A stretch of 64,000 nucleotides of DNA. Source: an uncultured Verrucomicrobiae bacterium. Its GTDB lineage: Bacteria > Verrucomicrobiota > Verrucomicrobiia > Chthoniobacterales > UBA10450. Shown here piece by piece: positions 3 to 62,781 of this stretch. The stretch spans positions 96,001-160,000 of the forward strand of contig CAVSDR010000006.1 in the NCBI GenBank assembly GCA_963726745.1, written 5' to 3'. Under the pieces are notes generated by a model that made no database searches, had not been told where the DNA came from, and saw only the letters and a list, made by a program, of their open reading frames with translations. A program made the position numbers and the translations under genes. Within the stretch, counting starts at the first letter, position 1. Every line of letters starts with the position of its first letter.

Positions 3-1283
3 GGACCCGATGGGACCTTCCGGTTGTTTGGCGGTTATCCAAATGTCGGGAACGACACCGGGACCGTGGTTTTTTATGCGGAGCTCAATCCCTTGAATCC
101 ACGCCGTCGTGGAATCTACACGGGCGACGGCACCGGCAGCACTCGCTTGGTCGCCGATAACACGGGAAGCTTCACCTACTTTGGCAACGATCCGGCGATC
201 AACAACGCCGGCACGGTGGCCTTTATCGGCACCCTCAGCACGACGGAGAATGGGATCTTCGTGGGCCGCGACGGGGGCGCGAACGCAGCCACGAGGGTGG
301 TGAGCGATCCCGGCAGCGGTCTTTACGCCTTCGAGTCGCTCGCCTTGAACAATCATGGCCAGATCGTCTTCCTCGCGCGCCGACAAGCCACCGGGGCCAA
401 GGCGATCTACACGGTGCGCGAAGACGGCAGCGGCCTGCGCCTCCTGGCGGACGCCGCCGGACCTTTCGGGCTTTTGAAACCGCCGGCGATCAACGACCTT
501 GGCACAATCCTGTTCTACGCCACGCTCGACAATAATGCGGCCGGCCTCTACGCCGGACCGGACCCGGTGGACGACAAGGTGCTGGAGGTGGGCGACCCTC
601 TCTTTGATTCCACCGTCACCAGCCTCGCCTTCTTCCGCGGGCTGAATAATCGCAACGAGTTCGCCTTTTACTACGAGCTCGCCAACGGCCGCAAAGGCAT
701 CGCCCAAGGCCGGCTGACGCTTGCGAGCACGCCGACCAACGTCGTCTCGCGGCGGACGCACGGAAGCGCAGGCACGTTCGACCTGCCGCTGGCGACGAGC
801 GGCCAGCCGACGGTTGAGCCGCGCAATGGCCAGGGAAGTTACCGCATCACCTTTCACTTCCCGGTGCCCGTGAGCTTTGGAGCCGCCACCGTGACCAGCG
901 CCAGCGGCCAGACCGCGGAGGTGGCAGACACGCGGGCGTCAAATGCGGAGGGCACTGAGATCAGTGTAGATTTGGCGAATGTGAGCAACGGGCAGGTGCT
1001 CACGACCACCCTCCAGGGAGTGGAAGGGAGAGCCGACGTCGCCGTGCGACTGGCCATTCTCCCGGGCGACGTCAACGGCGACGGCATCGTCAACGCGGGG
1101 GATGTGATCCCGGTGCGGAACCGCTCCGGGCAGGTCACGGACGTAAGCAATTTCCTCGCAGACGTGACTACGGACGGCGTGATCAATGGCGCGGACACCC
1201 TGGTGGTGCGAGGCCGGGCAGGCAGCGCGCTGTCGCGCAACCAAAACGGCGCCGCGCGGGAAACGCGCGGCGCCGTTCGTTAG
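3..1283 (+). CDS. Secreted beta-propeller-like repeat protein (NxxGxxAF repeats) with C-terminal dockerin-like domain; 5' end outside window
   Basis: Frame open from window edge; repeats PAINNAGTVAF, LNNHGQIVF, INDLGTILF, LNNRNEFAF; C-terminal duplicated GDVNGDGIVNAGD / DVTTDGVINGAD. Confidence 0.75.
   Translation, partial: GPDGTFRLFGGYPNVGNDTGTVVFYAELNPLNPRRRGIYTGDGTGSTRLVADNTGSFTYFGNDPAINNAGTVAFIGTLSTTENGIFVGRDGGANAATRVVSDPGSGLYAFESLALNNHGQIVFLARRQATGAKAIYTVREDGSGLRLLADAAGPFGLLKPPAINDLGTILFYATLDNNAAGLYAGPDPVDDKVLEVGDPLFDSTVTSLAFFRGLNNRNEFAFYYELANGRKGIAQGRLTLASTPTNVVSRRTHGSAGTFDLPLATSGQPTVEPRNGQGSYRITFHFPVPVSFGAATVTSASGQTAEVADTRASNAEGTEISVDLANVSNGQVLTTTLQGVEGRADVAVRLAILPGDVNGDGIVNAGDVIPVRNRSGQVTDVSNFLADVTTDGVINGADTLVVRGRAGSALSRNQNGAARETRGAVR
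1243..1277 (-). terminator. Intrinsic terminator, probably for the RRM gene
   Basis: Perfect 14-bp inverted repeat AACGGCGCCGCGCG-GGAAA-CGCGCGGCGCCGTT (1245-1277), ending in a short T run on the minus strand. Confidence 0.7.
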
Positions 1284-1304
1284 GCAACAAGTTGCCGGCT
1301 AAAA

Positions 1305-1604
1305 TTAGCGACGTCCGCCGCCGCCGCCGCCGCCGCCGCCAGAGAAGGAACGCGGGCGTTCTTCGCGGGCACGAGCTTCGTTGACGGTGAGGGTGCGACC
1401 CTGGACTTCTTTGCCATTGAAGGCTTCGATCGCGGCGTTGCCGGAAGCGGCGTCACCCATGGTGACGAAACCGAAACCGCGCGAGCGGCCGGTGGTGCGA
1501 TCGTTGATCAACGCCACGTCCATGACTTTGCCGTGTTGCTCGAAAAGATCCTGGAGATCGTTTTCAGTGGTGTCGAATGAGAGGTTTCCTACGTACAGTT
1601 TCAT
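1305..1604 (-). CDS. RRM (RNP-1) RNA-binding protein with Gly-rich tail
   Basis: RNP2 LYVGNL, RNP1 RGFGFVTM, poly-Gly C-terminus. Confidence 0.95.
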
Positions 1605-1865
1605 AACAAGTTTTGGAGCAAAACTGGGAGTTTACAGAGCCGTTCCCGTGAATCGGGTTTCGGATCACCAATGAGGAGTCTCACCTGACGATCTACCAAG
1701 CAGCGAACAGAACAGAATCAATCCAATAAGCGGGCACCGTCGCCCGAATCGCCCAAAGCACAACCTTTCATTTCCCCCGGCCGGCCGCAGCGTTGGGCGC
1801 GTTCCCCCTAGGCGCGAGGGGGCCATTGCTTCCGCGGCGTCGCCCAGCGAAGCTGCCGGAACAGG

Positions 1866-6461: not shown

Positions 6462-6538
6462 AGCGATGAATCGCAGACATCTCCCGTCTCTGCGGCCTGC
6501 GATTAGTAAACTGAGTGCAATCGTCACAATCGACTCTC

Positions 6539-9306: not shown

Positions 9307-10782
9307 ATGAACACGGCCGAGCCGCAGCAAAAAGTCGCCGGAGGCTTCGCCGGCTTCATCGGCAAATTCACCGTCATGCGCGGGGCGCAACGCGAGCTTT
9401 GGCTCACGTTCCTGATCAAGTTCCTGATCTACACCGCCTACTCGGTGACGAACAAAACGATGGTCCTGTGGCTCTCGCGCGACCTCGGCTTTAACGACCA
9501 GGCGGCCGGCGCGCTCGTCGGCTGGGTTTGGGCGCCCGCGATGACCGTCTTCACCTTGCTGGCTGGCTCGCTGACCGACGCGATCGGACTGCGCCGCACT
9601 TTCTTCCTCGGCGTCGGGATTTGCACGGTCGCGCGCACGGTCATGGTCACCACTTCGGTGCCGTCGATCGCGCTCGCCTGCGGTGTGCTCCCACTGGCGA
9701 TCGGCGAAGCGCTCGGCACGCCGGTCTTGCTCGCGGCCACGCGGCGCTACTCCACCACGCGGCAGCGCTCGATTTCGTTTTCGATCATCTACATGGTGAT
9801 GAACGTCGGCTACATCGCTGCCGGCTGGATCTTCGACTTCGTCCGGCGCGTCGAGTTCCACTTCGATTGGTTCGGTTTCGCGCCGACGACGCACCAGCAA
9901 TTATTTCTCGTTAGTCTGGCCTTCGAGGTCGTGCTCTTCCCGGTGATTTACTTTCTCCGCCGCGGCGCAGAGGCGACCGATGAAGGCGTTCAATTCACGC
10001 CCGAAGCGATCCGGCCGGCGGGCAATTTCTTCCAAAGCATCGGCACGACCGTGCGCGAGAGCGCCGCTGCTACTGGGGCGCTCTTCCGCCGCCTGGTGCA
10101 CCAGCCGGACTTCTACCGCCTGCTCGCCTTCTTTCTCTTCATCGGCTTCCTCAAGGCGATCTTCCTGCAGATGGATTACGTCTTTCCGAAATTCGGCGAT
10201 CGCGAGCTCGGGCTGCACGCGCCGGTGGGCAAGCTCTCGGCGATTAACAGCATTCTCATCATCCTGCTGGTGCCGATCATTGGCGCGCTTACGCAACGCC
10301 AGGCCGCTTATCGCATGGTCATCATCGGCGGGATCATCTGCTCCGCGGGTGTGTTTGTCATGGCCCTGCCGACCGGCTGGTTCCAGCCGCTGGTCGAGAG
10401 CGGAGTCGGCCAATGGCTCGGGCACAGCTACCTCGGCCTCGATGGTCCGATCCATCCGTACTACATCATGACCGCGCTCTATCTCGCAGTCTTCTCGATC
10501 GGCGAAGCCTTTTACTCGCCGCGCGTCTACGAATACGCGGCCGCGATCGCACCGCGCGGGCAGGAAGCTTCCTACGGCGCGCTCGCTTACATCCCTTTCC
10601 TCATCGGCAAGCTCCTCGTCGGCACTTCCGGCTGGATCCTTGCCTGGCTCTGCCCGGCCGCGGGTCAATGCCGCGCCGCCGCCATGTGGCTCATCTTTGC
10701 CCTGGCCGCGTCGGTGGCGCCGATCGGGTTAATCGTTTTCCAGCGATATATCCGCGTCCCGGAAGAAGGCCGCGACGAATAA
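9307..10782 (+). CDS. MFS transporter, POT/peptide-transporter-like
   Basis: About 12 TM segments; [12 protein letters not shown] motif [21 protein letters not shown]. Confidence 0.8.
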
Positions 10783-11373: not shown

Positions 11374-13305
11374 GCAACGCCTGGAAGCGCGGCTCGCTGC
11401 GCAGCGGATCCCATTCCGGCTCCGCCCGCAGCAGGCCCGGCGTGGGGCCATTCGGCAGCCTAACGAGTCGTTCCAGCTCCGCGAGCGCGCGCTCTTTTTC
11501 GCCCACCTGCGCGTAGACTACCGCGAGGTTGGTTGCAAGGATCGGGCCGTCATAGGCATCGCGTTCCACCGGCAGTGCCTCGGTCACTTTCCGCAGTTGC
11601 CGGATGGCCTCCTCCTTCCGCCCGAGCGCAGCCAGCACCAAGCCGAGCATGCTCTGCGGCTTCGGATCCTCGGCGCAACAGGCGATCTGCTCTTCGACCG
11701 CGGCGCATGCGCTTTCTCGAAGGCAACTTCCGCGCCGCGGCCTCATTGCCCAGGCCGCGGGCGACCAGGCCCTCATACCAGGCACGCGGAAACGGATAAC
11801 TGTCGAGCGTCCCCGCCGTACCGCCGACGCCGGGATCGTTGAACTCCTCCTGCGGATGCCGCCGCAATGCCTCCGCCGCGCCGGCAAAATCCCGCTCCAT
11901 CAAGCGCACCCGCAGTTCGACTAACGAGACGCCTCCCCCCGGATCGAAGCTGCGCGGGATCGCTCGCAGCGCGGCCTGGAGCGGCGCGAGATCCCCCGTC
12001 GCGCGCAAGGCCAGCGCGGCCCGCGCGAGCGCGAAGAAATGCGCCTGCGGATTCACCTCCAGGCCCGCTGCCATCGTCCGCGCGGCCTCCTCGATCCGCC
12101 CCGTGAGGGCGTAGCACTCGGCGAGATTCCAGATCACCGAGACGTTTCGCGGATCGAGCTCCCGCGCTTTCTCGAAATGCCCGATCGCCCGCTCCCAATT
12201 TCCCTGCCGCCGGTCGAGCGCGCCGAAGGCGTCCCAAATTTCCGCGTCGTTCGGCACCGCCCGCCGCGCGATCTCCAGCTCGGCGCGAGCCTTCGGGTAA
12301 TCGCGGAAGCCAAAGTAGTGATAATAGGCCAGCGCGGTGTGCGCATCGCCCAGCTCGGGTTCCAACTCCAGCGCCCGCTCCGCCGACGCCTTCGCAAGCG
12401 CCAGCCGTTCGGTCGTCCGGTCGAGCCCAAACCAATAGAGCTCGCCGTGCCAGCGCGACCGCAGGCAATGCGCGAGCGCAAATTGCGGATCGCGCGCGAG
12501 CGCCCGCTCGAGATGACGCAGCGCTTTTTCGCCGTTCTCACGCGGATCGCCCGCGCCGCTCCAGCGAAAGAGATCGCGCGCGCGCAGATAATCTTCGTAG
12601 GCCTCGAGATCGGCGGTCGAGTGGATCCGCAGCCCGGCCCGCTCGCGCGGCGAAAGATTCGCCTGCAGCGCCATCGTGATCCGCTCTGCGAGCTCGCTCT
12701 GGAGCGCGAAAAGGTCGGTTAATTCCCGGTCAAACGAGTCCGCCCAGACGTGCGCGTCGATCGCGGCGTTAATCAACTGCACATTGACCCGCACCCGCTG
12801 CCCCGCGCGCCGCACCGTTCCCTCGAGAATGTGCGCCACGCCCAGTTCGCGGCCGATCTCGCGCAGGTTGCGCGTGCCGCTGCGATACTGGCGCACGGAG
12901 GTGCGGCTGATCACTTTCAAGTCCGCGATTTTCGCCAGCCGCGCGAGGATGTCGTCCTGGATGCCGTCGGCAAAATATTCGTTCTCCTGCTCGTGGCTCA
13001 GGTTTTCGAACGGGAGCACCGCGATGCTTTTCTCGGGGGCCGCTGCCGGTGGCGGCTGCCGGCGCGTCCTCGGTCCGCTTCACTCCTTTGCGCGTGAGGT
13101 CGAAGGCCCATGAAAGAATCAACGCGAGCGGAAAGCCGGCAGCCAGCAGAAGGATCACCAGGCGCACGGTCCAATTCGGAATGTCGAAAAACGGAAAGAC
13201 CTGCGTCGCCACCTGGATCAAGAGCCAGCTGACCACGCAGTAGCCGACCGCCAGGCGGTAGACCTTCCGCCGCTTCAGCTCGGTGAAAAATTGCTGGAGC
13301 TTCAC
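11321..13305 (-). CDS. TolB-like / TPR membrane protein, split by about two frameshifts (near 13030 and 11710)
   Basis: Pieces in three frames: [12 protein letters not shown]...[15 protein letters not shown]...DLKVISRTS plus TPRs; ...[14 protein letters not shown]. Confidence 0.8.
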
Positions 13306-13396: not shown

Positions 13397-14335
13397 GTGC
13401 CTTCCGCTACGTCGCCTAACGAGTCCACCAACCGGAGCGCGCTCCTCGCCGGTTTCGCGGCCTTCGGCTTCTGGGGCGTGATCCCGGTCTACTGGAAGCT
13501 GCTCAAAACCGTGAGCGCGCCGGAAATTCTCGCGCATCGCTTCGTTTGGACGACGGCCTTCCTGGTTTTCCTCCTCACCTGGCAAGGCCGCTGGCCGGAG
13601 GTGCGCGCCGCCTTGCGCTCGCGCCGCGCAACCATGTTCTGCATCGCCAGCGGGCTCGCGGTCTCAGGCAACTGGCTCCTCTTCATCTGGGCGGTGAACG
13701 TGAACCGCGTCCTCGAGACCAGCCTGGGTTACTTCATGGCGCCGTTGGTCAACGTTCTCCTGGGCGCGATCTTCCTGCGCGAGCGGCTGACCCGCTGGCA
13801 ACTCGCCTCCGTCCTCCTGGCCACGCTCGGCGTGCTCAATCTCACCTTCGGCTACGGACGATTCCCGTGGATCGCGCTCGGCCTTTGCCTTTCCTGGGGC
13901 GTCTACGGCTTGCTCCGGAAAATGTCCGGCACGGCCGCGATTCCCGGCTTGTTTTTCGAAACCACCATCCTCACTCCCGTGGCGATCGGTTATCTCCTTT
14001 GGCTGCCGGCCACTGGCGCCGGCATCTTCGGCCCGGCGCAGTGGACGCTCTCACTCCTGCTCCTGAGCACTGGCGTGGTCACCGGTCTGCCGCTGGTTTG
14101 GTTCGGCCATGCCGCGCGGCACTTGCGCCTAACGACCATCGGCTTCCTGCAATATCTCGCGCCGACCGGCACTTTCTTCCTCGGCGTCTTTCTCTATCAC
14201 GAGCCGTTCACCCGCGCGCACCTGATCACCTTCGGGCTGATCTGGATCGCGCTGGCTATTTTTACCAGCGAGATGATCCGGCTTTGGCGGGCGCGCCGTC
14301 CGGTGCCCGGTTCCGCGCCGCCGATCGCGGAGTGA
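13397..14335 (+). CDS. rarD: EamA-family transporter RarD
   Basis: WGVIPVYWK, EILAHR, ETSLGYFMAPLVNV, IGFLQYLAPT. Confidence 0.92.
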   Translation: MPSATSPNESTNRSALLAGFAAFGFWGVIPVYWKLLKTVSAPEILAHRFVWTTAFLVFLLTWQGRWPEVRAALRSRRATMFCIASGLAVSGNWLLFIWAVNVNRVLETSLGYFMAPLVNVLLGAIFLRERLTRWQLASVLLATLGVLNLTFGYGRFPWIALGLCLSWGVYGLLRKMSGTAAIPGLFFETTILTPVAIGYLLWLPATGAGIFGPAQWTLSLLLLSTGVVTGLPLVWFGHAARHLRLTTIGFLQYLAPTGTFFLGVFLYHEPFTRAHLITFGLIWIALAIFTSEMIRLWRARRPVPGSAPPIAE

Positions 14336-21318: not shown

Positions 21319-23625
<2,307 letters not shown>

Positions 23626-23629
<4 letters not shown>

Positions 23630-24308: not shown

Positions 24309-24389
24309 TTCCGGGGCGCTGACAGGCGCAGTGTGCCCATTTCCGGGCACTCCTCTTGGACGTTCTCCGTCCGTGAACCCCCGAATCTC

Positions 24390-41719: not shown

Positions 41720-41786
41720 GCGAATATTGCCTAACGAACGCAACCTAAAACAAAAACGGGAGGGCGCAACGGTGAAACCGCGATCT

Positions 41787-44365: not shown

Positions 44366-44483
44366 ATTTTCGTTCGTTAGGCAAAACCGCGCGCCGATAC
44401 ACGCGCGCTCCTCGCTTTGCCCGAATCAAAAACTGCGGGGACTGAATAAGGTTCCCGGCAATTCGTCAGTTCTTTCCACACTT

Positions 44484-45682: not shown

Positions 45683-45689
45683 GCAATCG

Positions 45690-46946
45690 TTAGGCAGCGC
45701 TCTCTGCCTCCACCGCGGCGGTATCCGCCGGGAGGTATTTCACCCCGGCGAGCCAAATCACGCCCGAGAGCAGGAGCATTCCGGAAAGGACCAGGAAGGC
45801 GATGTTCATCGTCGTGTGCCCGCCGATGTAGCCGATCGCGGGAAAGGCGGCCGCGTCGCCTAACAAGTGGATGACTAAAATATTGAAAGCAAAAGCACTC
45901 GCCCGGACGGAGGGGCGGGCCACGTTCGCCAGCGCAGTGTTTGACGGACCGGTGTTCAGAAAAGCGAAGAAGAGGGCGATCGCGATCAAAAACCACGCGA
46001 GCGGAAAGGGCACAAAGAGCGCCGCAACAAAGAACGGGAACGCCAGGATCATTCCCGCACCGGAAACCAAGAAATAGGAGCCGGGATAACGCGCCCGCAT
46101 CCGGTCAGCCAGCCAGCCGCCAAGGAGGGTCGAACCCAGGCCGGCGACCACCAGGATCATCCCGAAGTAGGCCTTCTCGGTATCCGGCCGCCCGCGATAG
46201 CGCAGGTAGGCCGCGAGCCAAAAACCGAGCCCGCCGAGGGCGAAAGTGAACGCCGTCTGGGCGGCGCAATTGATCACATAGGAAGGCGTGCGCAGCAGCT
46301 GGCGGTATTGCGGCCAGCCGGCTCTCGCGCCTGCCGGGCGCGCACCTGCGAGCGTGCGCGGATCGCGCTGCCAAAAACAAATCAGCCCCAGCAAAATTCC
46401 CGGCGGCATGACCAGGTAAAACGCCCAGCGCCAGCCCCAATAGCCGGCGACCAGGCCGCCGATGACGTAGCCCAGCGCGCTTCCCACCGGAATTGCCGCG
46501 CAGAAAATCGCCAGGATGCGGCCGCGTTTCTCGATCGGGAAAAGGTCGGCTAAAATCGTGGGCGCGGCCGGCCCGTAGCCGCCTTCGCCGATGCCGACAA
46601 GCACGCGCGTGAAGAGCAAGATGCCGAAGGTCGCGGCCAGGCCCGACCCGCCGCTGGCCAGGCTCCAGAGAAGGACCGCGAGGCCGATGATGAGCCAGCG
46701 CGAGAAGCGATCCGCGAGCCAGCCGAGGGCCGGCGCGGAGAGCATGTAGGTGACGAGGAATGCGGTGCCGAGAAGGCCGGTGGTGGCCATCGCGTTCGGG
46801 TCGTTAGGCAGGAAAAAAGTATCGCGAATCTCCGGTTCGACCGCGGCCAGGACCTGGCGGTCGATGTAGTTGAAAAGATTGATCGCGAGGAGCAATCCGA
46901 GGGCGACACCCGCGCCCGGTTTGCGCTCTGAGGGTGCGCCCGTCAT
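45690..46946 (-). CDS. Spinster-like MFS transporter
   Basis: INLFNYIDRQ, GWLADRFSR, RVLVGIGEG, AIPVGSALGY, IHLLGDA. Confidence 0.85.
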   Translation of the reverse strand: MTGAPSERKPGAGVALGLLLAINLFNYIDRQVLAAVEPEIRDTFFLPNDPNAMATTGLLGTAFLVTYMLSAPALGWLADRFSRWLIIGLAVLLWSLASGGSGLAATFGILLFTRVLVGIGEGGYGPAAPTILADLFPIEKRGRILAIFCAAIPVGSALGYVIGGLVAGYWGWRWAFYLVMPPGILLGLICFWQRDPRTLAGARPAGARAGWPQYRQLLRTPSYVINCAAQTAFTFALGGLGFWLAAYLRYRGRPDTEKAYFGMILVVAGLGSTLLGGWLADRMRARYPGSYFLVSGAGMILAFPFFVAALFVPFPLAWFLIAIALFFAFLNTGPSNTALANVARPSVRASAFAFNILVIHLLGDAAAFPAIGYIGGHTTMNIAFLVLSGMLLLSGVIWLAGVKYLPADTAAVEAESAA

Positions 46947-49197: not shown

Positions 49198-49641
49198 CGG
49201 ACGCCGCGGCACGAGCGCATTTGCGGTGTAGCTAAGCACGACTTCGCCGCGCTGGTTCGTGGCCACATTGCGCAGGCGCACAATTCCGTGGCCGGGCTTC
49301 GAACGCGAGGGGCGCAGCTCCAGGATTTCCGTTTCCAAGCGCAAGGTGTCGTTAGGCCGGACTGCGCGTGGCCAGCGCAACTCGTCCACGCCCAAGCCAA
49401 TCGCACCGCCCTCAAACTGGAGCGGGCCGGTGGTGAAAAGTCGCATCGCAATCGCCGCGGTGTGCCAGCCGCTCGCGGCCAGCCCGCCAAAGACGCTCGC
49501 CTCCGCGGCCGCATGCTCGAGATGAAACGCCTGCACATCGAACTCGCGCGCGAAGGCCACGATCGCCTCCTCGGTGACGCAATAGCCAGCGCTTTGGTAG
49601 CGTTGCCCGACAGCGAGGTCATCGAAGTAGAGTGCGCTCAT
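49174..49641 (-). CDS. MaoC-family dehydratase
   Basis: [37 protein letters not shown]. Confidence 0.88.
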
Positions 49642-53378: not shown

Positions 53379-54306
53379 GGACGCTTCGACAGCTCGGCGG
53401 CGGCTATGCGCACCCGGGCTACGCGCGCGCGTTAGCGGAATTTGGCCGCCCGCGGGCGCTGGCCGCCAGCGGCGGCTGGGTGTTGGAGCGGGCCATCCCG
53501 GACGCGGGCGCGCACGACGCGATGGGATGTTATCCGCTCTTTGCCTGCCACCACTGGGCCGGCCTGCGGGAGGATCTGGCGCTCCTCGCCGGTCGACTCG
53601 TTAGTCTAACGCTCGTGACCGATCCTTTCGGGGATTATACCGAACCATTGTTGCACGAAATCTTCCCGGACCTCGTCTCTCGATTTAAGCAGCATTTTGT
53701 CGCACGGCTTGGACCAGCCCGGCGCAGGATTTTGTTTCGTCGCATCACCGTTATTATGCGCAGCGAGCGCTGGCTCGGGTGCAGGTGGAACATTGTCCCG
53801 ATCCTCCATCTCTCTTGCGCGAATGGTGCGTCCTTTATGCAAATCTCGTGAGGCGTCACCGGGATCACGGGATTCAAGCGTTTTCGGAAGACTCATTCGC
53901 CCGGCAACTGGCGCTTCCGGGCGTGATCGCTTTTCGCGCCTCTTCCAGGGTGAAACCGTCGGGGTGCATCTCTGGCTGGTGGACGGGGAGGTGGCCTATT
54001 CCCATCTGGCGGCGACGAGTGATCCGGCTACGAGCTGATGGCGGCCTACGCGCTGCACTGGCAGGCGTTGGATTTTTTTGCCGAGCGCGTTCGTTATCTT
54101 GACTGGGGTGGCGGCGCGGGCCTGCGGGTGGAAGGCGAGGACGATGGCTGGCGCGCTTCAAACGCGGCTGGGCCAACGAAACCCGGATGGCCTTTCTCTG
54201 CGGCCGAATCTTGGACCCGCAAGAATATCGCCGCATCTGCGCAACCCGCGAGCGCTCGGCGACGACGAGCTACTTCCCGGCCTATCGCGCGGGCGAGTTT
54301 CACTAA
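53375..54306 (+). CDS. GNAT/FemAB-like acyltransferase, multiple frameshifts
   Basis: GYAHPGYARALAEFG, DAMGCYPLF, AYSHLAA, LDWGGGAG, YFPAYRAGEFH*. Confidence 0.62.
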
Positions 54307-55983: not shown

Positions 55984-55986
55984 GCG

Positions 55987-56795
55987 ATGGCCGCCGGTTT
56001 TCGTTCGCCTGCGCAGGTGGCGCGCCGGCTTCGCATCCTCCCGCTGGCTCGCCGGCAGTTGCAAAATTGGGCCTCGTTCGTTTGGCATTACGCGCTTGGA
56101 TTTACACCCGCCGGTCCCTACCGCTTTCGCAATGGCGCCAGCCTGCAAATCGCGCGCGCGCTCGACCACGTCCCGCTGATCGAGATTTTCCTGCGACAGG
56201 ACTACGGCCAGATCGAAGACCGCGCGGTCATTCTCGATCTTGGGGCGAATATTGGCGTCTTCTCCGTTTACGCCGCCAGTCACGCGCGCGGCGTGCAGGT
56301 TTACGCCTATGAACCATGGCCGGCCTTCTTTGAGTTGCTCCAGGCCAACATTCGCCGAAACGGCCAGGAAAAAATCGTGCGCTGCTATAATTTCGCGGTC
56401 GCGGCCAGCCCGGCGAATCGTGATCTGCTGGTGGAGGGATGCGACGTGTTCTTCCCGCGCCTCTTGGGGGTCGCGGAAAGACCCGCCGGGGCGACGCAGG
56501 TGCACTCCGTTCCCTGCACCGACCCTGGCCGAGATCCTGGCGACCAATGCGCTTGAGCGCGTCGACCTGCTGAAGATGGATTGCGAAGGCTCCGAATACG
56601 ACATCCTCTACGCGGCGCCGCCGGAGGTGCTCGCACGAATCAGGGAACTGCGGCTGGAATATCACAACCGCCCGGCTCCGCGGGAAAAGGTGGAGAATCT
56701 GAGGAGATTCCTCGAGGCATCCGGCTACACTGTTGTCCATGAGGAAGCGATCTCACCGAGCCAATGGAAACCTCTGGGCCCGCCGCCTCGGCTAA
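55987..56795 (+). CDS. FkbM-family methyltransferase, frameshifted
   Basis: ILDLGANIGVFS, YAYEP; then VDLLKMDCEGSEYDIL, LEYH; ends NLWARRLG*. Confidence 0.85.
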
Positions 56796-56816
56796 CGAGT
56801 GAAAACCATTCGCGCA

Positions 56817-57639: not shown

Positions 57640-58838
57640 TCGAGCCAAATGCCGCCGCCGCTGGCATTGCCCACCTGCCCGCGCGCCTTCCGGATGCTTT
57701 GCATGTCGGCCGGCCAAACGTGGGCGACCGCGCGCGCTTCCTCGCCCGGGTCAACGACATCCTGGAGAACAACTGGCTAACGAACGCCGGTCCCTACGTC
57801 CAGGAATTCGAGCGGCGGGTGGCGGAGATGCTGGACGTGGAGCATTGCGTTGCCATCTGCAATGCAACCATTGCGCTTAGCCTGGTGACACGCGCGCTTG
57901 ATCTCGAAGGCGAAGTCATCATGCCGTCGTTTACCTTCGTCGCCACCGCCCATGCTCTGCAGTGGCAACGAATCAGGCCGGTTTTTTGCGACGTCGATCC
58001 CGAGACGCACAATATTGATCCCGCCCAAATCGAATCCCTGATCACGCCGCGGACGAGCGGCATCCTCGGGGTGCACTTGTGGGGCCGCGCCTGCGCGATC
58101 GATCAACTCGAAGCCATCGCGCGGAAGCATTCGTTGCAGCTCCTCTTCGATGCCGCGCACGCCTTTGGCTGCACCCATCGCGGGCAGATGATCGGCGGCT
58201 TCGGGCGCGCGGAAGTCTTCAGTTTCCACGCGACTAAATTCATCAACACGCTCGAGGGCGGATTGGTAGCGACGAATGACGCTGAGCTGGCCGCGAAGCT
58301 GCGTTTCATGAAAAATTTCGGTTTCAGCGATTACGACCGGGTCGATTACCTCGGGATCAATGGGAAGATGAACGAAGTCTCAGCCGCCATGGGCCTGACC
58401 AATCTCGACGCCTTCGATGAATTCATGGCCGCGAATCGTCGCAATCACGACTGCTATCGGGCGGGCCTGCAATCCTGCCGGGGCCTGCGCTTGCTTTCCT
58501 TCGGTGACGGGGAGCAGCACAACTATCACTACATCGTGCTCGAGGTGGACGAGCGCGAGAGCGGAATCACCCGAGATCAGATCGTCCGGGAATTGCAGGG
58601 CCACCAGATCATCGCGCGCCGCTATTTCTACCCGGGCTGTCACCGCTTCGAACCCTACCGCAGCCAGGAACCGGATGCCGGCCGCCGATTGCCCCAGACC
58701 GAGCGCCTGGCCGCGCGCCTGATTTGTTTGCCGACGGGCTCGACCATCGGCGCGACTGAAATCGATCGCGTCTGCGGATTGCTCCGACAGATGGTCGGCC
58801 AAACGGCGCGCGAGCCGAGCGCTCCAACGTCTCGTTAG
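57636..58838 (+). CDS. DegT/DnrJ sugar aminotransferase (VioA/DesI-like)
   Basis: [41 protein letters not shown]. Confidence 0.92.
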
Positions 58839-60074
58839 GCGGACAACCCGGCCAGGCGCCGCCCCACTTCCTCGGCATTGGCCCGGCTGTTAAAGGCGGA
58901 GATGCGAAAATAGCCTTCGCCGCAGGAACCGAAACCGCTTCCCGGAGTGATGACCACGTGGAGATCATGCAGCATGCGGTCGAACATTTCCCAGCTCGTT
59001 AGGCCGCCCGGCGTCTTGACCCAGATGTAGGGCGCGTTCTGGCCGCCGTGGACTTCGAGGCCGGCGCCCTTGGCCGCCGCGGAGAGGATGCGCGCGTTGC
59101 CCATGTAATGCTCCACCAGCTCGCGCACCTGCGCCTTGCCCTCCGGCGCTGTAGAGCGATTCCGCTCCGCGCTGCACTGGATAGCTCACACTGTTCGCCT
59201 TTGTGCTCCAGCGACGATGCCAGAGCGGGTGCAGCGGGAGCCAGCGGCCGTCCGGCGTCTGCAGGTGAAGCTTTTTCGACATGACGGTGAAACCGCAACG
59301 CACCCCGGTAAAGCCGCCGGTCTTGGAAAAGCTGCGGAATTCCACCGCGCATTCCTCCGCGCGGGGAATTTCAAAGATCGAATGCGGGATTTCCGGGTCG
59401 CTGATGTAGGCCTCATAGGCCGCGTCGTAGAGCAGCACTGCCTTGTGCTCGCGGGCCCATTCGACCCAGCGCGTGAGCTGCGCGCGCGTAGCCACGGCGC
59501 CGGTGGGATTATTCGGGAAACAGAGATAGACCAGATCGGCGTGCTCGTTAGGCGGCTCCGGCACGAAGCCGTTTTCGGCCCGGCACGGGAGATAGATGAT
59601 GCCCTCGTAGCGTCCATCTTTACCCGCCGGGCCGGTGTGGCCCGCCATCACATTGGTATCGACGTAGACCGGGTAAACCGGGTCGGTAATCGCGATCCGG
59701 TTCTGGTGGCCAAGGACATCGAGGATGTAACCGCAATCGCTCTTCGAGCCGTCGGAGAGGAAAATCTCGTCGGGCGCGATCTTGATCCCGCGCGCGCGAT
59801 AATCCTGCTGGCTAATTTTCTCGCGCAGGAACTCGTAGCCCTGTTCATGCCCGTAGCCACGGAAGGTTTCGCGGTGGCCCAGCTCCTCGACCGCCGCGTG
59901 CATCGCATCGATCGCCGCGCGCGGGAGCGCCTCGGTCACATCGCCGACGCCGCAGCGGATGATGTCCGCGGTGGCGTCTGGATGTTGCTGGCAAAATTCT
60001 TTTACCCGCCGCCCGATCTCGGGAAAGAGATATCCGGCCTGAAGCTTGAGATAATTGTCGTTGAGATAGGCCAT
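58835..60074 (-). CDS. dapL: LL-diaminopimelate aminotransferase, frameshift near 59140
   Basis: [69 protein letters not shown]. Confidence 0.94.
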
Positions 60075-60135
60075 AAAGGAAAAATCCCTGCAACTAGCGG
60101 GCACGCCGCAGCTGCAGGGATGAAGAAACTGCCGG

Positions 60136-60747
60136 CTATTTTGCCGACTCGTAGCGCTTCGAAACTTCCGACCAGTTGACCGTATTCCACCAGGCCTTCA
60201 GGTAATCCGGCCGGCGGTTCTGGTAGTTCAGGTAATAAGCGTGTTCCCACACGTCCACGCCGACGATCGGCGTGTGGCCTTCCATCAGGGGGCTGTCCTG
60301 ATTCGGGGTGGAGATGATCTCGAGCTTGCCGCTCTTGTTCTTCACCAGCCAGGCCCAGCCGCTGCCGAAACGTCCGGCGCCGGCGGCGGCGAGCTTCTCC
60401 TTGAACTCATCGAAGCTGCCGAAGGTGGATTTGATGTCGTCGGCTAATTTTCCGGTCGGCTCGCCGCCGCCGTTCGGCCCCATGATCTGCCAGAAGAACG
60501 AGTGGTTCGCGTGGCCGCCGCCGTTGTTGCGCACAACGGTGCGGATGTTTTCCGGGACCGCGTCGAGGTTGCTGATTAAATCTTCCACCGACTTGTTCGC
60601 CAGCTCGGGGTGATCCTTGAGCGCGTTGTTGACGTTGGTGATGTAAGCCTGGTGGTGCTTGGTGTGATGGATTTCCATCGTGCGCGCGTCGATGTGCGGC
60701 TCGAGCGCGTCGTAGGCGTAGGGGAGTTTCGGTAATTCGTAAGCCAT
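60136..60747 (-). CDS. sodA: Superoxide dismutase, Mn-type signatures
   Basis: [35 protein letters not shown]. Confidence 0.95.
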
Positions 60748-60783
60748 AGGCCTAACGATTCGGCACGAAACCGGAGCCGTCAA

Positions 60784-62781
60784 TTAACGGCAGCGATAGA
60801 AGCTCGGATAATGCCCGCGGCCGGTGCGGTAGTTGGCGTAGGTTGCCAGCGCCATCAGCGGGAAATTCTGCCGGTACATGTCGTACTTGAGATAAAACAC
60901 GCGCGGAAAACCGGTCCCGGTGACCTGCGGTTCGTCCCACGCGCCATCTTCTTTCTGCGTATTGATGAGATAACGCAGGCCGCGCTGGACGCTGGCGCGC
61001 TCGAGATCACCGCACGCACAAATGCCCATGAGCGCCCAAGCCGTCTGCGAAGCCGTGCTCTCGCCTTTGCCCTTGAGCGTGAGGTCGTCGTAGCTCGCGC
61101 AAGTTTCGCCCCAGCCGCCATCGGGATTTTGGCAGCTCTCCAGCCAATCGCGCCCGCGCAGGATCCAATCCTGCGACATGTCCTCGCGGATCGCCCGCAG
61201 CCCGCGCAGCACCTGCCACGTCCCGTAAATGTAGTTCACGCCCCAGCGGCCATACCAGGAGCCGTCGTCGTCCTGCGTGTCGATCAGGTATTGCACCGCG
61301 CGCCGCACGCAGGATTGCTGCACGTCGAAGCCGATGTAGCCGAAAAGCTCGAGCGTGCGCGCGGTCAGGTCGCTGCAGGTCGGGTCGAGGATGGCGTTGT
61401 GATCGGCGAACGGCATGTCCTCGAGCCAGCGTTGCGTGACTTCCTTGTCGAACGCGGCCCAGCCGCCGTCGCGGCATTGGAAGCTGAGCTGCCAGCCGAG
61501 CGCGCGCTGGAAGAGCGCGTCGAGCGCCTTCTGGTCGTTAGGCCGGACGAGGCGCAGGCCCATCAAGACCATCGCAGTGTCGTCCGTGTCCGGGTAATAG
61601 ACGTTGTTGTATTCGAAAGCCCAGCCGCTCGCCTTCGGGTAGGAATTGTTCTGCGCCCAGTCACCGCGGATGCGGACCTCTTTGTCCACCAGCCACTCGG
61701 CCGCCTTCCGCATCGCCGGATGGTCCGCCGGCACGCCGGATTCACCCAGCGCAATCAGGTTGATCGCCGTATCCCAGACCGGCGAAAGGCAGGGTTGAAT
61801 GCGGATGTCCTCCGGATCATCGACGAAGAGCTCGTGGAAATCCTTCCACGCTTTCACATAGGCCGGATGCGTCTTCTCGTAGCCGAGCGCGTGCAGGGCG
61901 ATGAGTGCATTGAGCATCGCCGGGAAAACCGCCGCGAGCCCATCGCTCCCTTCGCCGATTCGCTCGAGCATCCAGCGCTCCGCTTCCTCGAGCGCGCGCT
62001 GCCGCATCGGCCGCCAGCCGACGCGCGAGATGATCTTGAAAGCGCGATCCGCGCGCAGGAAAAGATTTCGCCAGGCAAAGAAACGCCGGTGCCGCGGGAG
62101 GGTGAAATCATTTTGCTCCGTGCCCACCGGGTAGAGCTCGTGGAGCTGCTTGTCATCGGAGAGCTCACGGGTGGGCTTGAAGTGATTGATGATCGCGAGC
62201 GGCACCAGCATGGCCCGGCTCCAGGAAGACATCTTGTAGATGTGGAACGGGAACCACTGCGGGAAGAGGATCATCTCCACCGGGATCGACGGCAGGTAAT
62301 GCCACGGAAATTGCCCCAGCAAAGCGAGGTAGAGCTTGCTGAAGGTGTTCATCGCGGGAATGCCGCCAAGGCGCAGGATATTTGCCCGCGCCTCCTGCAT
62401 GAACGGCTGCTCCGGCGCGTGGCCCGCAAGCTTGAGCGCGAAATAAGCTTTAGCCGACGCGTTCACTTCGCTCGGCCCGCCGTAGTAGATGTTCCAACCG
62501 CCATCGGGCAGCTGACGTTTGAGAATATGGAGCACGCAACGTTGCTGCAGCGCCTCGTCCACCTCGCCCAGCCAGTGCATGAAGAGCACGTAGTCGGAGC
62601 AGAGCGTGCTATCGACGATCAGCTCGCCGCACCAATGTCCGTCAGGCTTTTGCTGGCGCAGGAGATTGTCCTGCGCCCGGCGGATTGCATCGCGAATCTC
62701 GGGCAAGGGCGGCGCGTAAGCCGCTGCCGAGGCCGGCGACGCGCTAGGCAGCGGGATGACGTTCGAAGTCGTCGGAGGCAT
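60784..62781 (-). CDS. shc: Squalene-hopene cyclase
   Basis: QW repeats, SPVWDT, YPDTDDTA (DxDD), GRWGVNYIYGT, TGTGFP. Confidence 0.96.
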   Translation of the reverse strand: MPPTTSNVIPLPSASPASAAAYAPPLPEIRDAIRRAQDNLLRQQKPDGHWCGELIVDSTLCSDYVLFMHWLGEVDEALQQRCVLHILKRQLPDGGWNIYYGGPSEVNASAKAYFALKLAGHAPEQPFMQEARANILRLGGIPAMNTFSKLYLALLGQFPWHYLPSIPVEMILFPQWFPFHIYKMSSWSRAMLVPLAIINHFKPTRELSDDKQLHELYPVGTEQNDFTLPRHRRFFAWRNLFLRADRAFKIISRVGWRPMRQRALEEAERWMLERIGEGSDGLAAVFPAMLNALIALHALGYEKTHPAYVKAWKDFHELFVDDPEDIRIQPCLSPVWDTAINLIALGESGVPADHPAMRKAAEWLVDKEVRIRGDWAQNNSYPKASGWAFEYNNVYYPDTDDTAMVLMGLRLVRPNDQKALDALFQRALGWQLSFQCRDGGWAAFDKEVTQRWLEDMPFADHNAILDPTCSDLTARTLELFGYIGFDVQQSCVRRAVQYLIDTQDDDGSWYGRWGVNYIYGTWQVLRGLRAIREDMSQDWILRGRDWLESCQNPDGGWGETCASYDDLTLKGKGESTASQTAWALMGICACGDLERASVQRGLRYLINTQKEDGAWDEPQVTGTGFPRVFYLKYDMYRQNFPLMALATYANYRTGRGHYPSFYRCR

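What the first reader, a model, noticed from the sequence alone, without database searches (positions are those of the whole stretch)
1277..61483. Strongly over-represented non-palindromic 9-mer TCGTTAG[G>C>T]C: candidate DNA-uptake sequence or genome-wide binding signal
Seen, by manual count (a minimum): TCGTTAG on the plus strand at 1277, 9908, 22267, 22411, 23486, 24421, 28079, 28937, 29618, 29786, 43077, 43329, 44157, 44374, 45687, 46801, 49349, 53598, 58832, 58996, 59545 and 61475 (22 copies). The reverse complement occurs near 11459, 11921, 13415, 14128, 16825, 18027, 19421, 23975, 25637, 25884, 28799, 32385, 41353, 41730, 56791, 57776 and 60751 (17 copies). Of the 39, 26 read TCGTTAGGC, 8 TCGTTAGCC, 4 TCGTTAGTC and 1 TCGTTAGGT. 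A zero-order estimate at an assumed 65% GC gives about 4 for the 7-mer and under 1 for the exact 9-mer. Near-variants TTGTTAGGC occur at 22009, 29648 and 45859. Copies sit inside genes in different frames using codons that are rare here: TCG-TTA-GGC (SLG in cusA, copA, recR), CCT-AAC-GA (PNE/PND), CTA-ACG (WLTN in degT) and GTT-AGG/AGC. So the selection appears to act on DNA, not protein. Established: Neisseria DUS and Pasteurellaceae USS are 9-10-mers at roughly one per 1-2 kb, unpolarised and embedded in coding sequence, whereas Chi and KOPS are strand-polarised. Inference: an uptake-like signal or nucleoid/partitioning protein site that I do not know to be described for this lineage.
Basis: partly seen in the sequence, partly recalled or inferred. 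Interest (0 to 1): 0.92.

Follow-up and report, generated by a model that had tools for sequence, protein, structure and literature searches.

The report
Genome-wide DNA word matching integron site
This soil bacterium and most of its family have written the ten-letter DNA word CTCGTTAGGC thousands of times into ordinary genes, much like the DNA-uptake tags of Neisseria, and the same word fills some genomes of an unrelated soil phylum and is the right end of integron gene-cassette sites, so an unknown protein probably reads it.

Summary
Observation confirmed. TCGTTAG occurs 39 times in the window (2.7 expected) and 2025 times in the 3.41-Mb genome. CTCGTTAGGC (820) and ACTCGTTAGGC (321) are the commonest 10- and 11-mers. 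The excess is about 9-15-fold over a synonymous-codon shuffle on either gene strand. It shows no replication polarity (746 vs 748) and sits in genes, stop codons and spacers. Copies avoid each other at short range and are missing from low-GC islands.

In the host family, 60 of 81 sampled genomes carry the word at 3x control or more; 16 other families of the order do not. My own calls also find it at 975-3882 copies in Gemmatimonadaceae genomes. Earlier notes of this scan had reported the word there, with the integron link.

CTCGTTAG[AG][CT] is the right end of the attC/attI sites of this family's integrons, including a 16-site cassette array in this genome. Integrase presence does not track word density.

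Best reading (0.35): a DUS/USS-like tag spread by biased DNA uptake, with a sequence taken from the integron site. A second, lineage-specific word family (TTAGCCRRC...) was also found.

The parts
1277..1283 (+). word copy GTTCGTTAGGC; its TAG is the stop codon of the gene ending at 1283
9908..9914 (+). word copy TCTCGTTAGTC, sense, in MFS transporter gene 9307-10782
11460..11466 (-). word copy ACTCGTTAGGC, intergenic
11921..11927 (-). word copy TCTCGTTAGTC, sense (TCG-TTA-G frame), TPR gene 11550-13019
13416..13422 (-). word copy ACTCGTTAGGC, antisense in EamA transporter gene
14129..14135 (-). word copy GGTCGTTAGGC, antisense in EamA transporter gene
16826..16832 (-). word copy GTTCGTTAGCC; TAG is the stop codon of gene 16826-17284
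18028..18034 (-). word copy ATTCGTTAGGC, sense S-L-G frame in recR (17753-18361)
19422..19428 (-). word copy TCTCGTTAGGC, sense, gene 18370-19611 (cyclase-domain protein)
22267..22273 (+). word copy AGTCGTTAGGC (no gene called here by my caller; P-type ATPase region)
22411..22417 (+). word copy AGTCGTTAGCC (same region)
23486..23492 (+). word copy ACTCGTTAGGC, sense S-L-G frame, P-type ATPase gene piece 22526-23629
23976..23982 (-). word copy AGTCGTTAGCC, intergenic by my caller
24421..24427 (+). word copy ACTCGTTAGCC, sense, outer-membrane efflux protein gene 24333-25661
25638..25644 (-). word copy AGTCGTTAGGC, antisense, same gene
25885..25891 (-). word copy ACTCGTTAGGC; its complement gives the TAA stop of gene 25658-25888
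28079..28085 (+). word copy TGTCGTTAGGC in RND pump gene 26240-30079; kept at the orthologous place in 5 of 8 aligned relatives
   Evidence: covered by run X1 contig without differences
28800..28806 (-). word copy ACTCGTTAGGC, antisense in RND pump gene; absent at the orthologous place in all 8 aligned relatives
28937..28943 (+). word copy CTTCGTTAGGC, sense, RND pump gene; relatives carry other codons there, with no indel
29618..29624 (+). word copy TCTCGTTAGTC, sense, RND pump gene; shared only with G044
29786..29792 (+). word copy ACTCGTTAGCC, sense, RND pump gene; G000-specific
32386..32392 (-). word copy TCTCGTTAGGC, antisense in NifU-like gene
41354..41360 (-). word copy CGTCGTTAGGC; complement gives the TAA stop of the KsgA/NUDIX gene 39987-41357
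41731..41737 (-). word copy GTTCGTTAGGC, sense, gene 41354-41743
43077..43083 (+). word copy ACTCGTTAGCC, sense, TPR gene 42596-44365
43329..43335 (+). word copy GCTCGTTAGGC, sense, same gene
44157..44163 (+). word copy TTTCGTTAGGT, sense, same gene
44374..44380 (+). word copy GTTCGTTAGGC, just after gene end
45687..45693 (+). word copy AATCGTTAGGC, intergenic by my caller
46801..46807 (+). word copy GGTCGTTAGGC, intergenic
49349..49355 (+). word copy TGTCGTTAGGC, antisense in MaoC-like dehydratase gene
53598..53604 (+). word copy ACTCGTTAGTC, intergenic by my caller
56792..56798 (-). word copy ACTCGTTAGCC, intergenic
57777..57783 (-). word copy GTTCGTTAGCC; TAG is the stop of gene 57777-58229
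58832..58838 (+). word copy TCTCGTTAGGC, intergenic
58996..59002 (+). word copy GCTCGTTAGGC, antisense in aminotransferase gene 58965-60104
59545..59551 (+). word copy GCTCGTTAGGC, antisense, same gene
60752..60758 (-). word copy AATCGTTAGGC, sense, Fe/Mn superoxide dismutase gene
22009..22017 (+). near-variant TTGTTAGGC; kept at the orthologous place in 8 further relatives' loci (10 of 30 loci counting G000's own and G029's copy on the opposite strand), so probably ordinary conserved coding sequence
29648..29656 (+). near-variant TTGTTAGGC (C-to-T at the CpG), G000-specific
45858..45866 (-). near-variant TTGTTAGGC on the minus strand

Best explanation
The word (W-S-S-A)-C-T-C-G-T-T-A-G-G-C is a DNA-level tag read as double-stranded DNA by a sequence-specific protein not yet identified. 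GTTAG is strictly fixed and the outer letters are graded.

Most likely it works like the uptake sequences of Neisseriaceae and Pasteurellaceae. Under that model, a component of the DNA-import machinery prefers fragments carrying the word. Alleles that acquire the word by point substitution are then taken up and recombined more often. The word therefore spreads through genes, stop codons and spacers until roughly one copy per fragment is reached. This is molecular drive, not a benefit of each single site.

The word's sequence is not arbitrary. It is the right end (CTCG|TTAGRY) of the integron attC/attI sites circulating in these soil lineages, so cassette arrays are tagged automatically. That would explain why two phyla share one word.

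Shown: DNA-level excess, anatomy, distribution, maintenance, identity with the integron site end, and dissociation from the integrase.
For: Density and form are like DUS/USS. There are 2025 copies of the 7-mer and 1312 of the 9-mer in 3.41 Mb, and the 10- and 11-mers are the commonest in the genome.

The word is imposed against coding habits. It is 885 vs 59 (sense) and 564 vs 66 (antisense) over synonymous shuffles, and 608 of 2773 TTA codons lie in the word. It uses cheap places: 104 TAG stops and 165 TAA stops of 2574 called genes lie inside it. Density is 0.57 per kb in genes and 0.67-0.79 per kb between genes, with no preference for convergent or divergent spacers.

There is no replication polarity: 746 vs 748 relative to GC skew.

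Spacing suggests saturation. Gaps of 60 bases or less number 25 vs 71 expected, and gaps of 200 or less number 110 vs 228. This fits 'one copy per fragment is enough'.

The word is missing from probable foreign DNA. There are 15 gaps of 10 kb or more vs 5 expected, many of low GC. Cassette interiors carry none: in the 9-kb array all 16 copies are attC ends.

It is actively kept. One-letter variants at the five core letters are not enriched (73 seen vs 131 expected under an order-3 model). Yet most sites are young: only 1 of 7 sites in an aligned 4-kb stretch is shared with word-rich G044. Copies arise by substitution without indels.

The import hardware exists: ComEC, DprA, a weak ComEA-like HHH protein, 3 secretins, 10 T2SSE-type ATPases and 16-19 prepilins.

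This genome has no IntI and only two Xer-like tyrosine recombinases. G072 has IntI plus about 28 cassettes but only 13 copies of the 9-mer, 8 of them in the integron.
Against: No uptake bias has been measured, and none of the organisms is known to me as transformable.

Competence genes do not separate word-rich from word-free genomes. ComEC is found in 78 of 81. Secretins and DprA are found in 5 of 5 tested, including four word-free genomes.

No ComP_DUS homologue passes threshold (1 borderline of 81).

Inverted pairs acting as terminators, typical of DUS/USS, are rare. Only 25 pairs lie within 60 bases, in all orientations.

One identical word across at least 36 genera and a second phylum, with no dialects seen, is unlike the known uptake sequences.

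Identity with an integrase-binding site points as readily to a recombinase-type reader.

My gene calls are crude (81% coding), so sense, antisense and intergenic numbers are approximate.
Confidence: 0.35

Rival explanations
1. The word is a binding half-site for a tyrosine recombinase of the IntI/Xer kind. The genome-wide copies would be single arms of an integron-type site. They might be kept as landing or synapsis sites for cassettes (a distributed attI/attG) or for a chromosome function of a Xer-like enzyme.
For: The 8 letters CTCGTTAG plus R-Y are the right end of the attC and attI sites examined beside intI in G060, G090, G094, G114 and G095. In one search, 15 of 15 R'-type sites read CTCGTTAG. 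The same holds in G072's array and in this genome's 16-site array. Both the double-stranded attI end and the folded attC end carry it, so the integrase of this clade probably contacts it. Integrons are common in the family: IntI passes the cut-off in 49 of 81 genomes. This genome holds cassettes at five loci, which fits insertion outside a platform. The preprint 10.1101/2022.09.11.507474 (passages read) shows that IntI inserts cassettes at genomic GWT sites.
Against: There is a double dissociation. Word-rich G000, G024, G086, G097 and G098 have no IntI over the cut-off, while word-free G072 has IntI and a large array. Median word/control ratios are 4.9 with IntI and 4.6 without. G000 has only two tyrosine recombinases and no free-standing SAM-like N-domain, yet its copies show no decay. 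Genomic copies are single arms: only 23 attC-like hairpin sites exist among 2025 copies. Thousands of insertion sites inside genes would be harmful. The genomic word prefers GTTAGGC, whereas the arrays in G000, G060, G090, G094 and G114 mostly read GTTAGA[CT] or GTTAGGT; about 8 of G072's R' ends do read GTTAGGC.
Confidence: 0.2
2. The word is a site for another chromosome-wide system that needs one site every 1-2 kb on either strand. Examples are a strand-discrimination nick site for mismatch repair, a nucleoid or SMC-type organiser, or a 'self' mark read by a defence or repair nuclease.
For: Copies show short-range repulsion, with about 30 per 50-kb bin across all seven contigs. There is no polarity. 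The word is absent from islands. The five core letters are strictly kept. Density varies between close relatives, as expected if an accessory system comes and goes.
Against: No candidate gene was found. Nothing explains the identity with the integron site end. Low positional conservation between word-rich relatives argues against site-specific structural roles. No known system of these kinds uses an unpolarised non-palindromic 10-mer (my knowledge, not a call).
Confidence: 0.2
3. The word is written by a biased mutation or repair process and has no reader function. This would resemble the methyltransferase-linked short-patch repair proposed for the cyanobacterial HIP1 palindrome (recalled: Elhai 2015, not read here). 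Near-matches would be converted to the word.
For: One-letter variants at core letters sit at or below expectation while outer letters vary, the pattern recalled for HIP1. Orthologous places differ by 4-7 of 11 letters from relatives while the flanks are nearly identical, as if patches were replaced. A second, unrelated word family bloomed in only 2 of 81 genomes (G000 and G055), so words can appear quickly and patchily.
Against: A pure mutational process would not make copies avoid each other within 200-500 bases. The only PF01555 DNA methyltransferase is a core family gene: it is intact in word-free G072, G082, G055 and G087 and broken in word-rich G110. The C-to-T variant at the CpG is enriched (93 copies), which a T:G-correcting repair would remove. 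No Vsr search was run, and the two HsdM-like genes were not profiled.
Confidence: 0.12
4. The excess is a by-product of protein motifs, codon bias, a dispersed mobile element or a sequencing artefact.
For: The TCG-TTA-GGC frame (Ser-Leu-Gly) is the commonest single frame, with 608 copies.
Against: Both strands, all stop-free frames and spacers are used. The excess is about 9-15-fold over a shuffle that preserves amino acids. Flanks carry no information beyond about 14 bases. Short-read MAGs of relatives carry the word.
Confidence: 0.01

Closest known systems
DNA uptake sequences: DUS of Neisseriaceae (read by the minor pilin ComP) and USS of Pasteurellaceae
   Same: Both are short non-palindromic words at about one per 1.7-2.6 kb, on both strands without replication polarity. 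Both lie in genes and spacers, are imposed against codon habits, are rare in acquired DNA, have a strict core with graded outer letters, and turn over between species.
   Different: No uptake bias is shown and no ComP_DUS homologue was found. Hardly any inverted terminator pairs occur. No dialects were seen: one word spans at least 36 genera and a second phylum. Density varies about 30-fold within one genus. The word coincides with an integron site.
Integron recombination sites: core site GTTRRRY (R' of attC, R box of attI) bound by the integron integrase IntI
   Same: GTTAGGC fits GTTRRRY. The three letters before it (CTC) also match the attC and attI ends of this family's integrons and of this genome's own cassette arrays.
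   Different: Genomic copies are single arms inside ordinary genes. They lack the partner R''/L boxes and the hairpin. They occur in genomes without IntI and are lacking in a genome with IntI. Their number (thousands) has no precedent for recombination sites.
HIP1 (GCGATCGC) of cyanobacteria (recalled from the literature, not read here)
   Same: Both are hyper-abundant words inside genes, patchy among relatives, with alternative words in some lineages and variants concentrated at the outer letters.
   Different: HIP1 is a palindrome tied to cognate methyltransferases. This word is non-palindromic, and the one methyltransferase profiled does not track it.
Chi (RecBCD/AddAB) and KOPS/SRS (FtsK/SpoIIIE) motifs
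   Same: Both are over-represented short non-palindromic chromosomal words read by a DNA-processing protein.
   Different: Those are strongly co-oriented with replication. This word is 746 vs 748, and its excess is far larger.

Membership tests
DUS/USS-type uptake sequence | Hyper-abundant short non-palindromic word on both strands (about one per 1-3 kb) | tested here: met
   2025 copies of the 7-mer and 1312 of the 9-mer in 3.41 Mb; the 10- and 11-mers are the commonest in the genome
DUS/USS-type uptake sequence | Present in coding and non-coding DNA and imposed against coding habits | tested here: met
   874 sense, 565 antisense, 586 intergenic or edge; 885 vs 59 and 564 vs 66 over synonymous shuffles
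DUS/USS-type uptake sequence | No replication-strand polarity | tested here: met
   746 vs 748 relative to local GC skew; per-contig counts
DUS/USS-type uptake sequence | Depleted in recently acquired DNA | tested here: met
   15 gaps of 10 kb or more vs 5 expected, many at GC 0.58-0.62 vs 0.637; none inside cassettes
DUS/USS-type uptake sequence | Frequent inverted pairs forming terminators downstream of genes | tested here: not met
   Only 25 pairs within 60 bases, 10 of them inverted; convergent spacers are not favoured (0.78 vs 0.79 per kb)
DUS/USS-type uptake sequence | Lineage-restricted, with dialects among related genera | tested here: inconclusive
   Restricted within the order: 0-14 copies in 16 genomes from 15 other families. 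But the same word occurs in 60 of 81 family genomes over 36 genera and in 16 of 61 Gemmatimonadaceae. No dialect was found in the one word-poor genome sampled (254 kb of G002)
DUS/USS-type uptake sequence | Cognate receptor (ComP-type minor pilin) | tested here: not met
   PF16732 gives only sub-threshold N-terminal pilin matches; 1 borderline hit among 81 genomes. A non-homologous receptor cannot be excluded
DUS/USS-type uptake sequence | Competence machinery encoded | tested here: met
   ComEC, DprA, HHH_3 protein, 3 secretins, T2SSE ATPases and prepilins. These are equally present in word-free relatives
DUS/USS-type uptake sequence | Preferential uptake of word-bearing DNA | not testable with these tools
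   Needs an uptake or transformation assay
Integron attC/attI recombination site | Core GTTRRRY with the local flanking letters | tested here: met
   CTCGTTAG[AG][CT] at 15 of 15 R' ends beside intI, in G072's array and in G000's arrays
Integron attC/attI recombination site | Paired R''/L''-L'/R' boxes able to fold (attC), or an L box plus direct repeats (attI) | tested here: not met
   Only 23 attC-like sites by nhmmer; 42 candidate pairs in the whole genome, most of them those arrays or chance pairs; the other roughly 2000 copies are single
Integron attC/attI recombination site | Integron integrase in the genome, co-varying with the sites | tested here: not met
   No TIGR02249 match above 80 bits in G000 (cut-off 265); only 2 PF00589 proteins; no association across 81 genomes
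Chi / KOPS-type polar motifs | Strong co-orientation with replication | tested here: not met
   49.9% on the G-rich strand
HIP1-like methylation-linked words | Palindromic word with a cognate methyltransferase tracking it | tested here: not met
   The word is non-palindromic. The PF01555 methyltransferase is present in 76 of 81 genomes regardless of word density. The HsdM-like genes were not profiled

The most novel reading that the evidence does not exclude
The word marks a cross-phylum link between DNA import and integrons. In one version, an unknown reader, gained and lost among soil Chthoniobacterales and Gemmatimonadaceae, has a specificity tuned to the right end of integron cassette sites ('cassette fishing'), and by molecular drive the tag has overrun whole genomes. 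In the reverse version, genomes saturated with the word are the raw material for new cassettes: 269 genes end in it and chance inverted pairs lie 50-150 bases apart, and new attC sites and gene cassettes could arise from such places. The origin of cassettes is an open problem in integron biology.
Probability: 0.15. Interest if true: 0.95.

Novelty: new variant of a known kind. Interest (0 to 1): 0.85.

Why it matters
Sequence-specific DNA uptake tags are firmly known from only two proteobacterial families. A tag of the same form in abundant, mostly uncultured soil Verrucomicrobiota would widen that picture. If it is read at DNA import, it would also say something about gene flow in soil.

Two phyla share one ten-letter word, and that word is the crossover end of integron cassette sites. 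This is not expected from any described system. It suggests a common reader and a possible tie between transformation, cassette traffic and the unexplained origin of attC sites.

The finding is directly testable. Cultivable Gemmatimonas strains could be used for uptake and pull-down assays.

Practically, the word and the second word family also distort codon usage. Up to 48% of TTA codons lie in one of the two words (the two counts overlap), and 269 stop codons lie in the first word. Gene finders and codon-usage analyses for these lineages should take this into account.

Tried and rejected
- **Replication polarity (Chi/KOPS reading).** Rejected: 746 vs 748.
- **Protein or codon origin.** Rejected by the synonymous shuffle.
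- **Dispersed element.** Flanks carry no information beyond about 14 bases.
- **Bipartite signal with the second word family.** No preferred distance or orientation between the two.
- **Dialect in a word-poor congener.** A 254-kb sample of G002 shows no strong substitute word. TTGCCGTCCG occurs 29 times vs 1.2 expected and was not followed up.
- **Competence genes as discriminators.** ComEC, secretin and DprA are present in word-free genomes too. ComP_DUS gave only sub-threshold hits.
- **Integrase as driver.** No association. No extra tyrosine recombinase or SAM-like N-domain in G000.
- **Methyltransferase as driver.** A regex screen gave 25 candidates, of which I sent 11 to Pfam. Three are DNA methylases: two HsdM-like and one PF01555. 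The PF01555 gene does not track the word. The HsdM-like genes and Vsr were not profiled.
- **Cassette ORFs of the G000 array.** Of 18 ORFs sent (11 of them lying within the array), 16 have no Pfam family, including all 11 within the array; the two that do are flanking genes, an SSF symporter and a protein with a weak CarboxypepD_reg/SdrD_B match.
- **Sequencing runs.** Only one soil run holds a small share (0.15) of the stretch. Its contigs cover two sites. The holes in coverage say nothing.
- **Literature.** The word strings hit only primer lists. 'DNA uptake sequence' with Verrucomicrobia returned 3 unrelated papers. The search with Chthoniobacterales/Udaeobacter returned only the known Neisseria and Pasteurellaceae papers. 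The attG preprint reports a GWT consensus, not this word.

Full report
**1. The observation**

One search finds 39 copies of TCGTTAG in the 64-kb window (22 on +, 17 on -). Dinucleotide-preserving shuffles expect 2.66 (largest 8 in 100). The variant split 26/8/4/1 is exact.

The window is G000:C6:96001-160000 of a 3.41-Mb, 7-contig assembly with 63.7% GC. Genome-wide there are 2025 copies of the 7-mer (991 +, 1034 -) and 1312 of TCGTTAGGC. CTCGTTAGGC (820 copies) is the commonest 10-mer and ACTCGTTAGGC (321) the commonest 11-mer. The 10-mer is expected 6.1 times under an order-3 Markov model. The 11-mer is expected 2.3 times under an order-4 model.

**2. The signal is in the DNA, not the protein**

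I made crude gene calls from long ORFs scored by an iterated codon model: 2574 genes covering 81% of the genome. On these calls, 874 copies are sense, 565 antisense and 586 intergenic or at gene edges. All stop-free frames are used.

Thirty shuffles of synonymous codons within genes give 59.1 (sd 7.0) sense and 65.6 (sd 6.7) antisense copies, against 885 and 564 observed. For the 9-mer the figures are 7.7 and 12.5 against 490 and 410. Of all 2773 TTA codons, 608 lie in TCG-TTA-G.

The word also supplies stop codons: 104 genes end with its TAG and 165 with the TAA of its complement.

Density is 0.57 per kb in genes and 0.67-0.79 per kb between genes. Convergent, divergent and tandem spacers are alike.

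In the window the word sits in ordinary genes. These include an RND pump, a P-type ATPase, an outer-membrane efflux protein, RecR, KsgA, squalene-hopene cyclase, superoxide dismutase and a NifU-like protein.

**3. Anatomy of the word**

Aligning all 2025 sites shows information over about 14 bases: W-S-S-A-C-T-C-G-T-T-A-G-G-C. Beyond that only codon periodicity remains.

One-letter variants of the 10-mer show how strict each position is.
- GTTAG and the T before the CG are strict. Variants there number 0-28 each and sit at or below expectation. For the five letters GTTAG, 73 are seen vs 131 expected, though that null is inflated by the word itself.
- The first letter accepts C > G, T but not A (820, 237, 226, 29).
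- The CpG C accepts T (93 copies).
- The ninth letter is G > C > T > A (820, 166, 81, 54).
- The tenth letter is C > G (820, 99).

**4. Distribution along the chromosome**

There is no replication polarity. In 50-kb bins with |GC skew| of 0.01 or more, 746 copies lie on the G-rich strand and 748 on the C-rich strand.

Copies avoid each other at short range. Gaps of 60 bases or less number 25 vs 71 expected for a Poisson process, gaps of 200 or less number 110 vs 228, and gaps of 500 or less number 432 vs 523. Very long gaps are in excess: 15 of 10 kb or more vs 5 expected. Many long gaps have GC of 0.58-0.62. Only 25 pairs lie within 60 bases, in all four orientation combinations, so terminator-like inverted pairs are not a feature.

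**5. How copies arise**

I aligned a 4.3-kb stretch with eight relatives of 67-82% identity. G000's copies face other codons at the same place, without indels, and differ in 4-7 of 11 letters while the flanks are nearly identical. One site (28079) is shared with five relatives. One (29618) is shared only with word-rich G044. The others are private to G000. The sites turn over quickly, while the intact state of existing copies (section 3) indicates active maintenance.

**6. Relatives**

- **Same genus.** The 10-mer is at 3x or more of its reversed-word control in 21 of 24 genomes (51-1549 copies).
- **Same order.** It is at or below control in all 16 genomes (15 other families) of the order that were sampled (0-14 copies).
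- **Same family.** The 9-mer is at 3x control or more in 60 of 81 sampled genomes from 36 genera, and at 10x or more in 22. The maximum is 4336 copies in the 3.2-Mb G097. Seven genomes are at 1.5x or less: G055, G062, G072, G082, G087, G090, G103.
- **A word-poor congener.** A 254-kb sample of G002 showed only a faint excess (CCTAACGA 16 vs 2.1) and no substitute word.

G051, G055 and G062, and G001, G008 and G042 in the genus sample, are flagged unpublished. The statements about G055 and G062 rest on them.

**7. A second phylum**

Earlier notes of this scan (AI notes) reported the word CGTTAGGC in Gemmatimonadaceae and its identity with an integron core. I tested both claims myself.

I scanned one genome per species (185,579 species) for two exact 10-mers 300-330 bases apart.
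- Of the 80 listed, 67 are titled Chthoniobacterales, Verrucomicrobiae or Verrucomicrobiota MAGs.
- Ten are Gemmatimonadaceae or Gemmatimonas.
- Three others (Oscillospiraceae, Desulfobacterales, Eubacteriales) show same-strand, regularly spaced copies with similar flanks, like cassette arrays.

Four of the Gemmatimonadaceae genomes hold 975-3882 copies of the 9-mer on both strands (controls 48-80). The Desulfobacterales genome holds 9, five of them in one cluster.

In a sample of 61 genomes of that family, 16 are at 3x control or more and 6 at 10x or more. This sample includes the centre G126, which I picked for the word, and G129, which I had also found by the word. Most of the rest are far below control. 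G137, G162 and G163 in that sample are flagged unpublished.

**8. The integron link**

An integron integrase (TIGR02249) passes its cut-off in 49 of 81 family genomes. Beside intI in G060, G090, G094, G114 and G095, all 15 R'-type site ends read CTCGTTAG followed by R-Y. This includes the end nearest intI, the attI junction. The partner ends read ...GGTTAG on the complement. G072's integron shows the same over about 28 cassettes.

G000 itself has 23 attC-like sites by an nhmmer profile. Sixteen form an array at C6:736302-744892, and there are 2+2+2+1 at four other loci. The ORFs within the array have no Pfam family. All 16 word copies in the array are attC ends, and none lies inside a cassette.

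The integrase does not track the word.
- G000, G024, G086, G097 and G098 are word-rich without IntI over the cut-off.
- G072 has IntI and a large array but only 13 copies of the 9-mer genome-wide, 8 of them in the array.
- Median word/control ratios are 4.9 with IntI (n=49) and 4.6 without (n=32); Mann-Whitney p=0.37, and kin are not independent.
- G000 has only two tyrosine recombinases, both Xer-like, and no free SAM-like N-domain.

MAG incompleteness limits all statements of absence. G000 is 94.7% complete.

**9. Search for a reader**

G000 encodes ComEC, DprA, a weak HHH_3 (ComEA-like) protein, 3 secretins, 10 T2SSE-type ATPases and 16-19 prepilin-type proteins. ComEC is in 78 of 81 family genomes. 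Secretins and DprA are in all of G072, G082, G055 and G087 (word-free) and G097 (word-rich). ComP_DUS gives only sub-threshold matches.

Of 25 regex candidates for DNA methylases, 11 were sent to Pfam. Three are methylases: two HsdM-like and one PF01555. The PF01555 gene is a core family gene in 76 of 81 genomes. It is intact in word-free genomes and broken in word-rich G110. No reader was identified.

**10. A second word family**

Ranking 8-mers against the codon shuffle puts the main word first (z up to 155) and a second family next, for example AATTAGCC at 307 vs 18. Its consensus is W-W-W-T-T-A-G-[C>G]-C-R-R-C-R-M-S-W-T-S, with 1955 copies of TTAG.C[AGC|GGC|GAC].

It is also DNA-level: 877 sense vs 84.5 and 647 antisense vs 94.5 in shuffles. 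It shows no fixed spacing to the main word. Among 81 family genomes, TTAGCCRRC is enriched only in G000 (1139 vs 190) and G055 (555 vs 156). Different words can therefore bloom patchily in this family.

**11. Interpretation**

The form of the signal is closest to DUS/USS, and I rank uptake-linked molecular drive first (0.35). It is the only known process that yields an unpolarised, non-palindromic word at about one per 2 kb. It also accounts for a word that is imposed on genes, absent from foreign DNA, self-limiting at short range and turning over between species.

The identity with the integrase's site end, and the sharing between phyla, argue that the sequence is borrowed from integron sites.

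The rivals are a recombinase-type half-site (0.2), another chromosome-wide system (0.2) and a repair-driven word without function (0.12). Short-range repulsion speaks against a purely mutational origin. Low positional conservation speaks against site-specific structural roles.

**12. Literature**

Searches for the word strings, for 'DNA uptake sequence' with Verrucomicrobia, and for uptake-sequence terms with Chthoniobacterales or Udaeobacter found no description of this word. These were search listings and abstract starts only. From 10.1101/2022.09.11.507474 I read passages: IntI inserts cassettes at genomic GWT sites, with no bias for this word reported.

The following are recalled and not read here: ComP as DUS receptor, DUS dialects, even spacing of USS, the HIP1-methylase model, and the GTTRRRY consensus. 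No supplements were consulted.

Noticed in passing
window, 32 sites, e.g. 2858(-), 5788(+), 15286(+), 17106(+), 31681(+), 35973(+), 37632(+), 62450(+); genome-wide: A second DNA-level word family, WWWTTAG[C>G]C-RRC-RMS-WTS, has about 1950 copies. It is 7-10-fold over a synonymous shuffle on both gene strands. Among 81 family genomes it is enriched only in G000 and G055 (unpublished). Up to about 48% of all TTA codons lie in one of the two words (the two counts overlap).
   Followed up: partly
G000:C6:736302-744892 (L193 5300-13900); also C4:150073-151066, C4:24533-25437, C3:633144-634737, C2:58980-59082: Integron cassette arrays without an integrase gene. There are 16 similar attC sites of about 124 bases in one array and 7 more at four other loci. 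The array ORFs have no Pfam family. Each small cluster is preceded by a lone TTCTCGTTAGG site.
   Followed up: partly
whole genome G000: Stop-codon use is nearly even (TAG 917, TGA 853, TAA 803 of 2574 crude gene calls) in a 64% GC genome. The word supplies 104 of the TAG and 165 of the TAA stops.
   Followed up: partly
whole genome G000: Two hexamer tandem-repeat families are very frequent: GCCAAC (about 142 copies of its 14-mers) and GAGTCG (about 50-56). They are probably repeat-coded proteins.
   Followed up: no
G000:C3:682717-682740: Two inverted copies of the word core are separated by six bases (CTAAC-6-GTTAG). This is the geometry of a tyrosine-recombinase core site and could be a dif-like site or chance.
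   Followed up: no
G000:C7:49300-85007: A region of about 35 kb with low GC (0.58) has almost no copies of the word and holds a gene of 1871 codons. It is probably acquired DNA.
   Followed up: no
family genomes G059, G060, G080, G090, G099, G107, G110, G112, G122: The core PF01555 DNA methyltransferase (G000:C3:981068-982042) appears split, frameshifted or fragmentary in these genomes. This is unrelated to word density.
   Followed up: no
L005-L017 (254 kb of G002): This word-poor congener has a moderately over-represented word of its own, TTGCCGTCCG (29 vs 1.2 expected).
   Followed up: no
window 22009-22017 and loci L025-L040: TTGTTAGGC in the P-type ATPase gene is kept at the same place in at least 8 relatives' loci (10 of 30 loci counting G000's own and one copy on the opposite strand). 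This is probably ordinary protein conservation and not a word site.
   Followed up: partly
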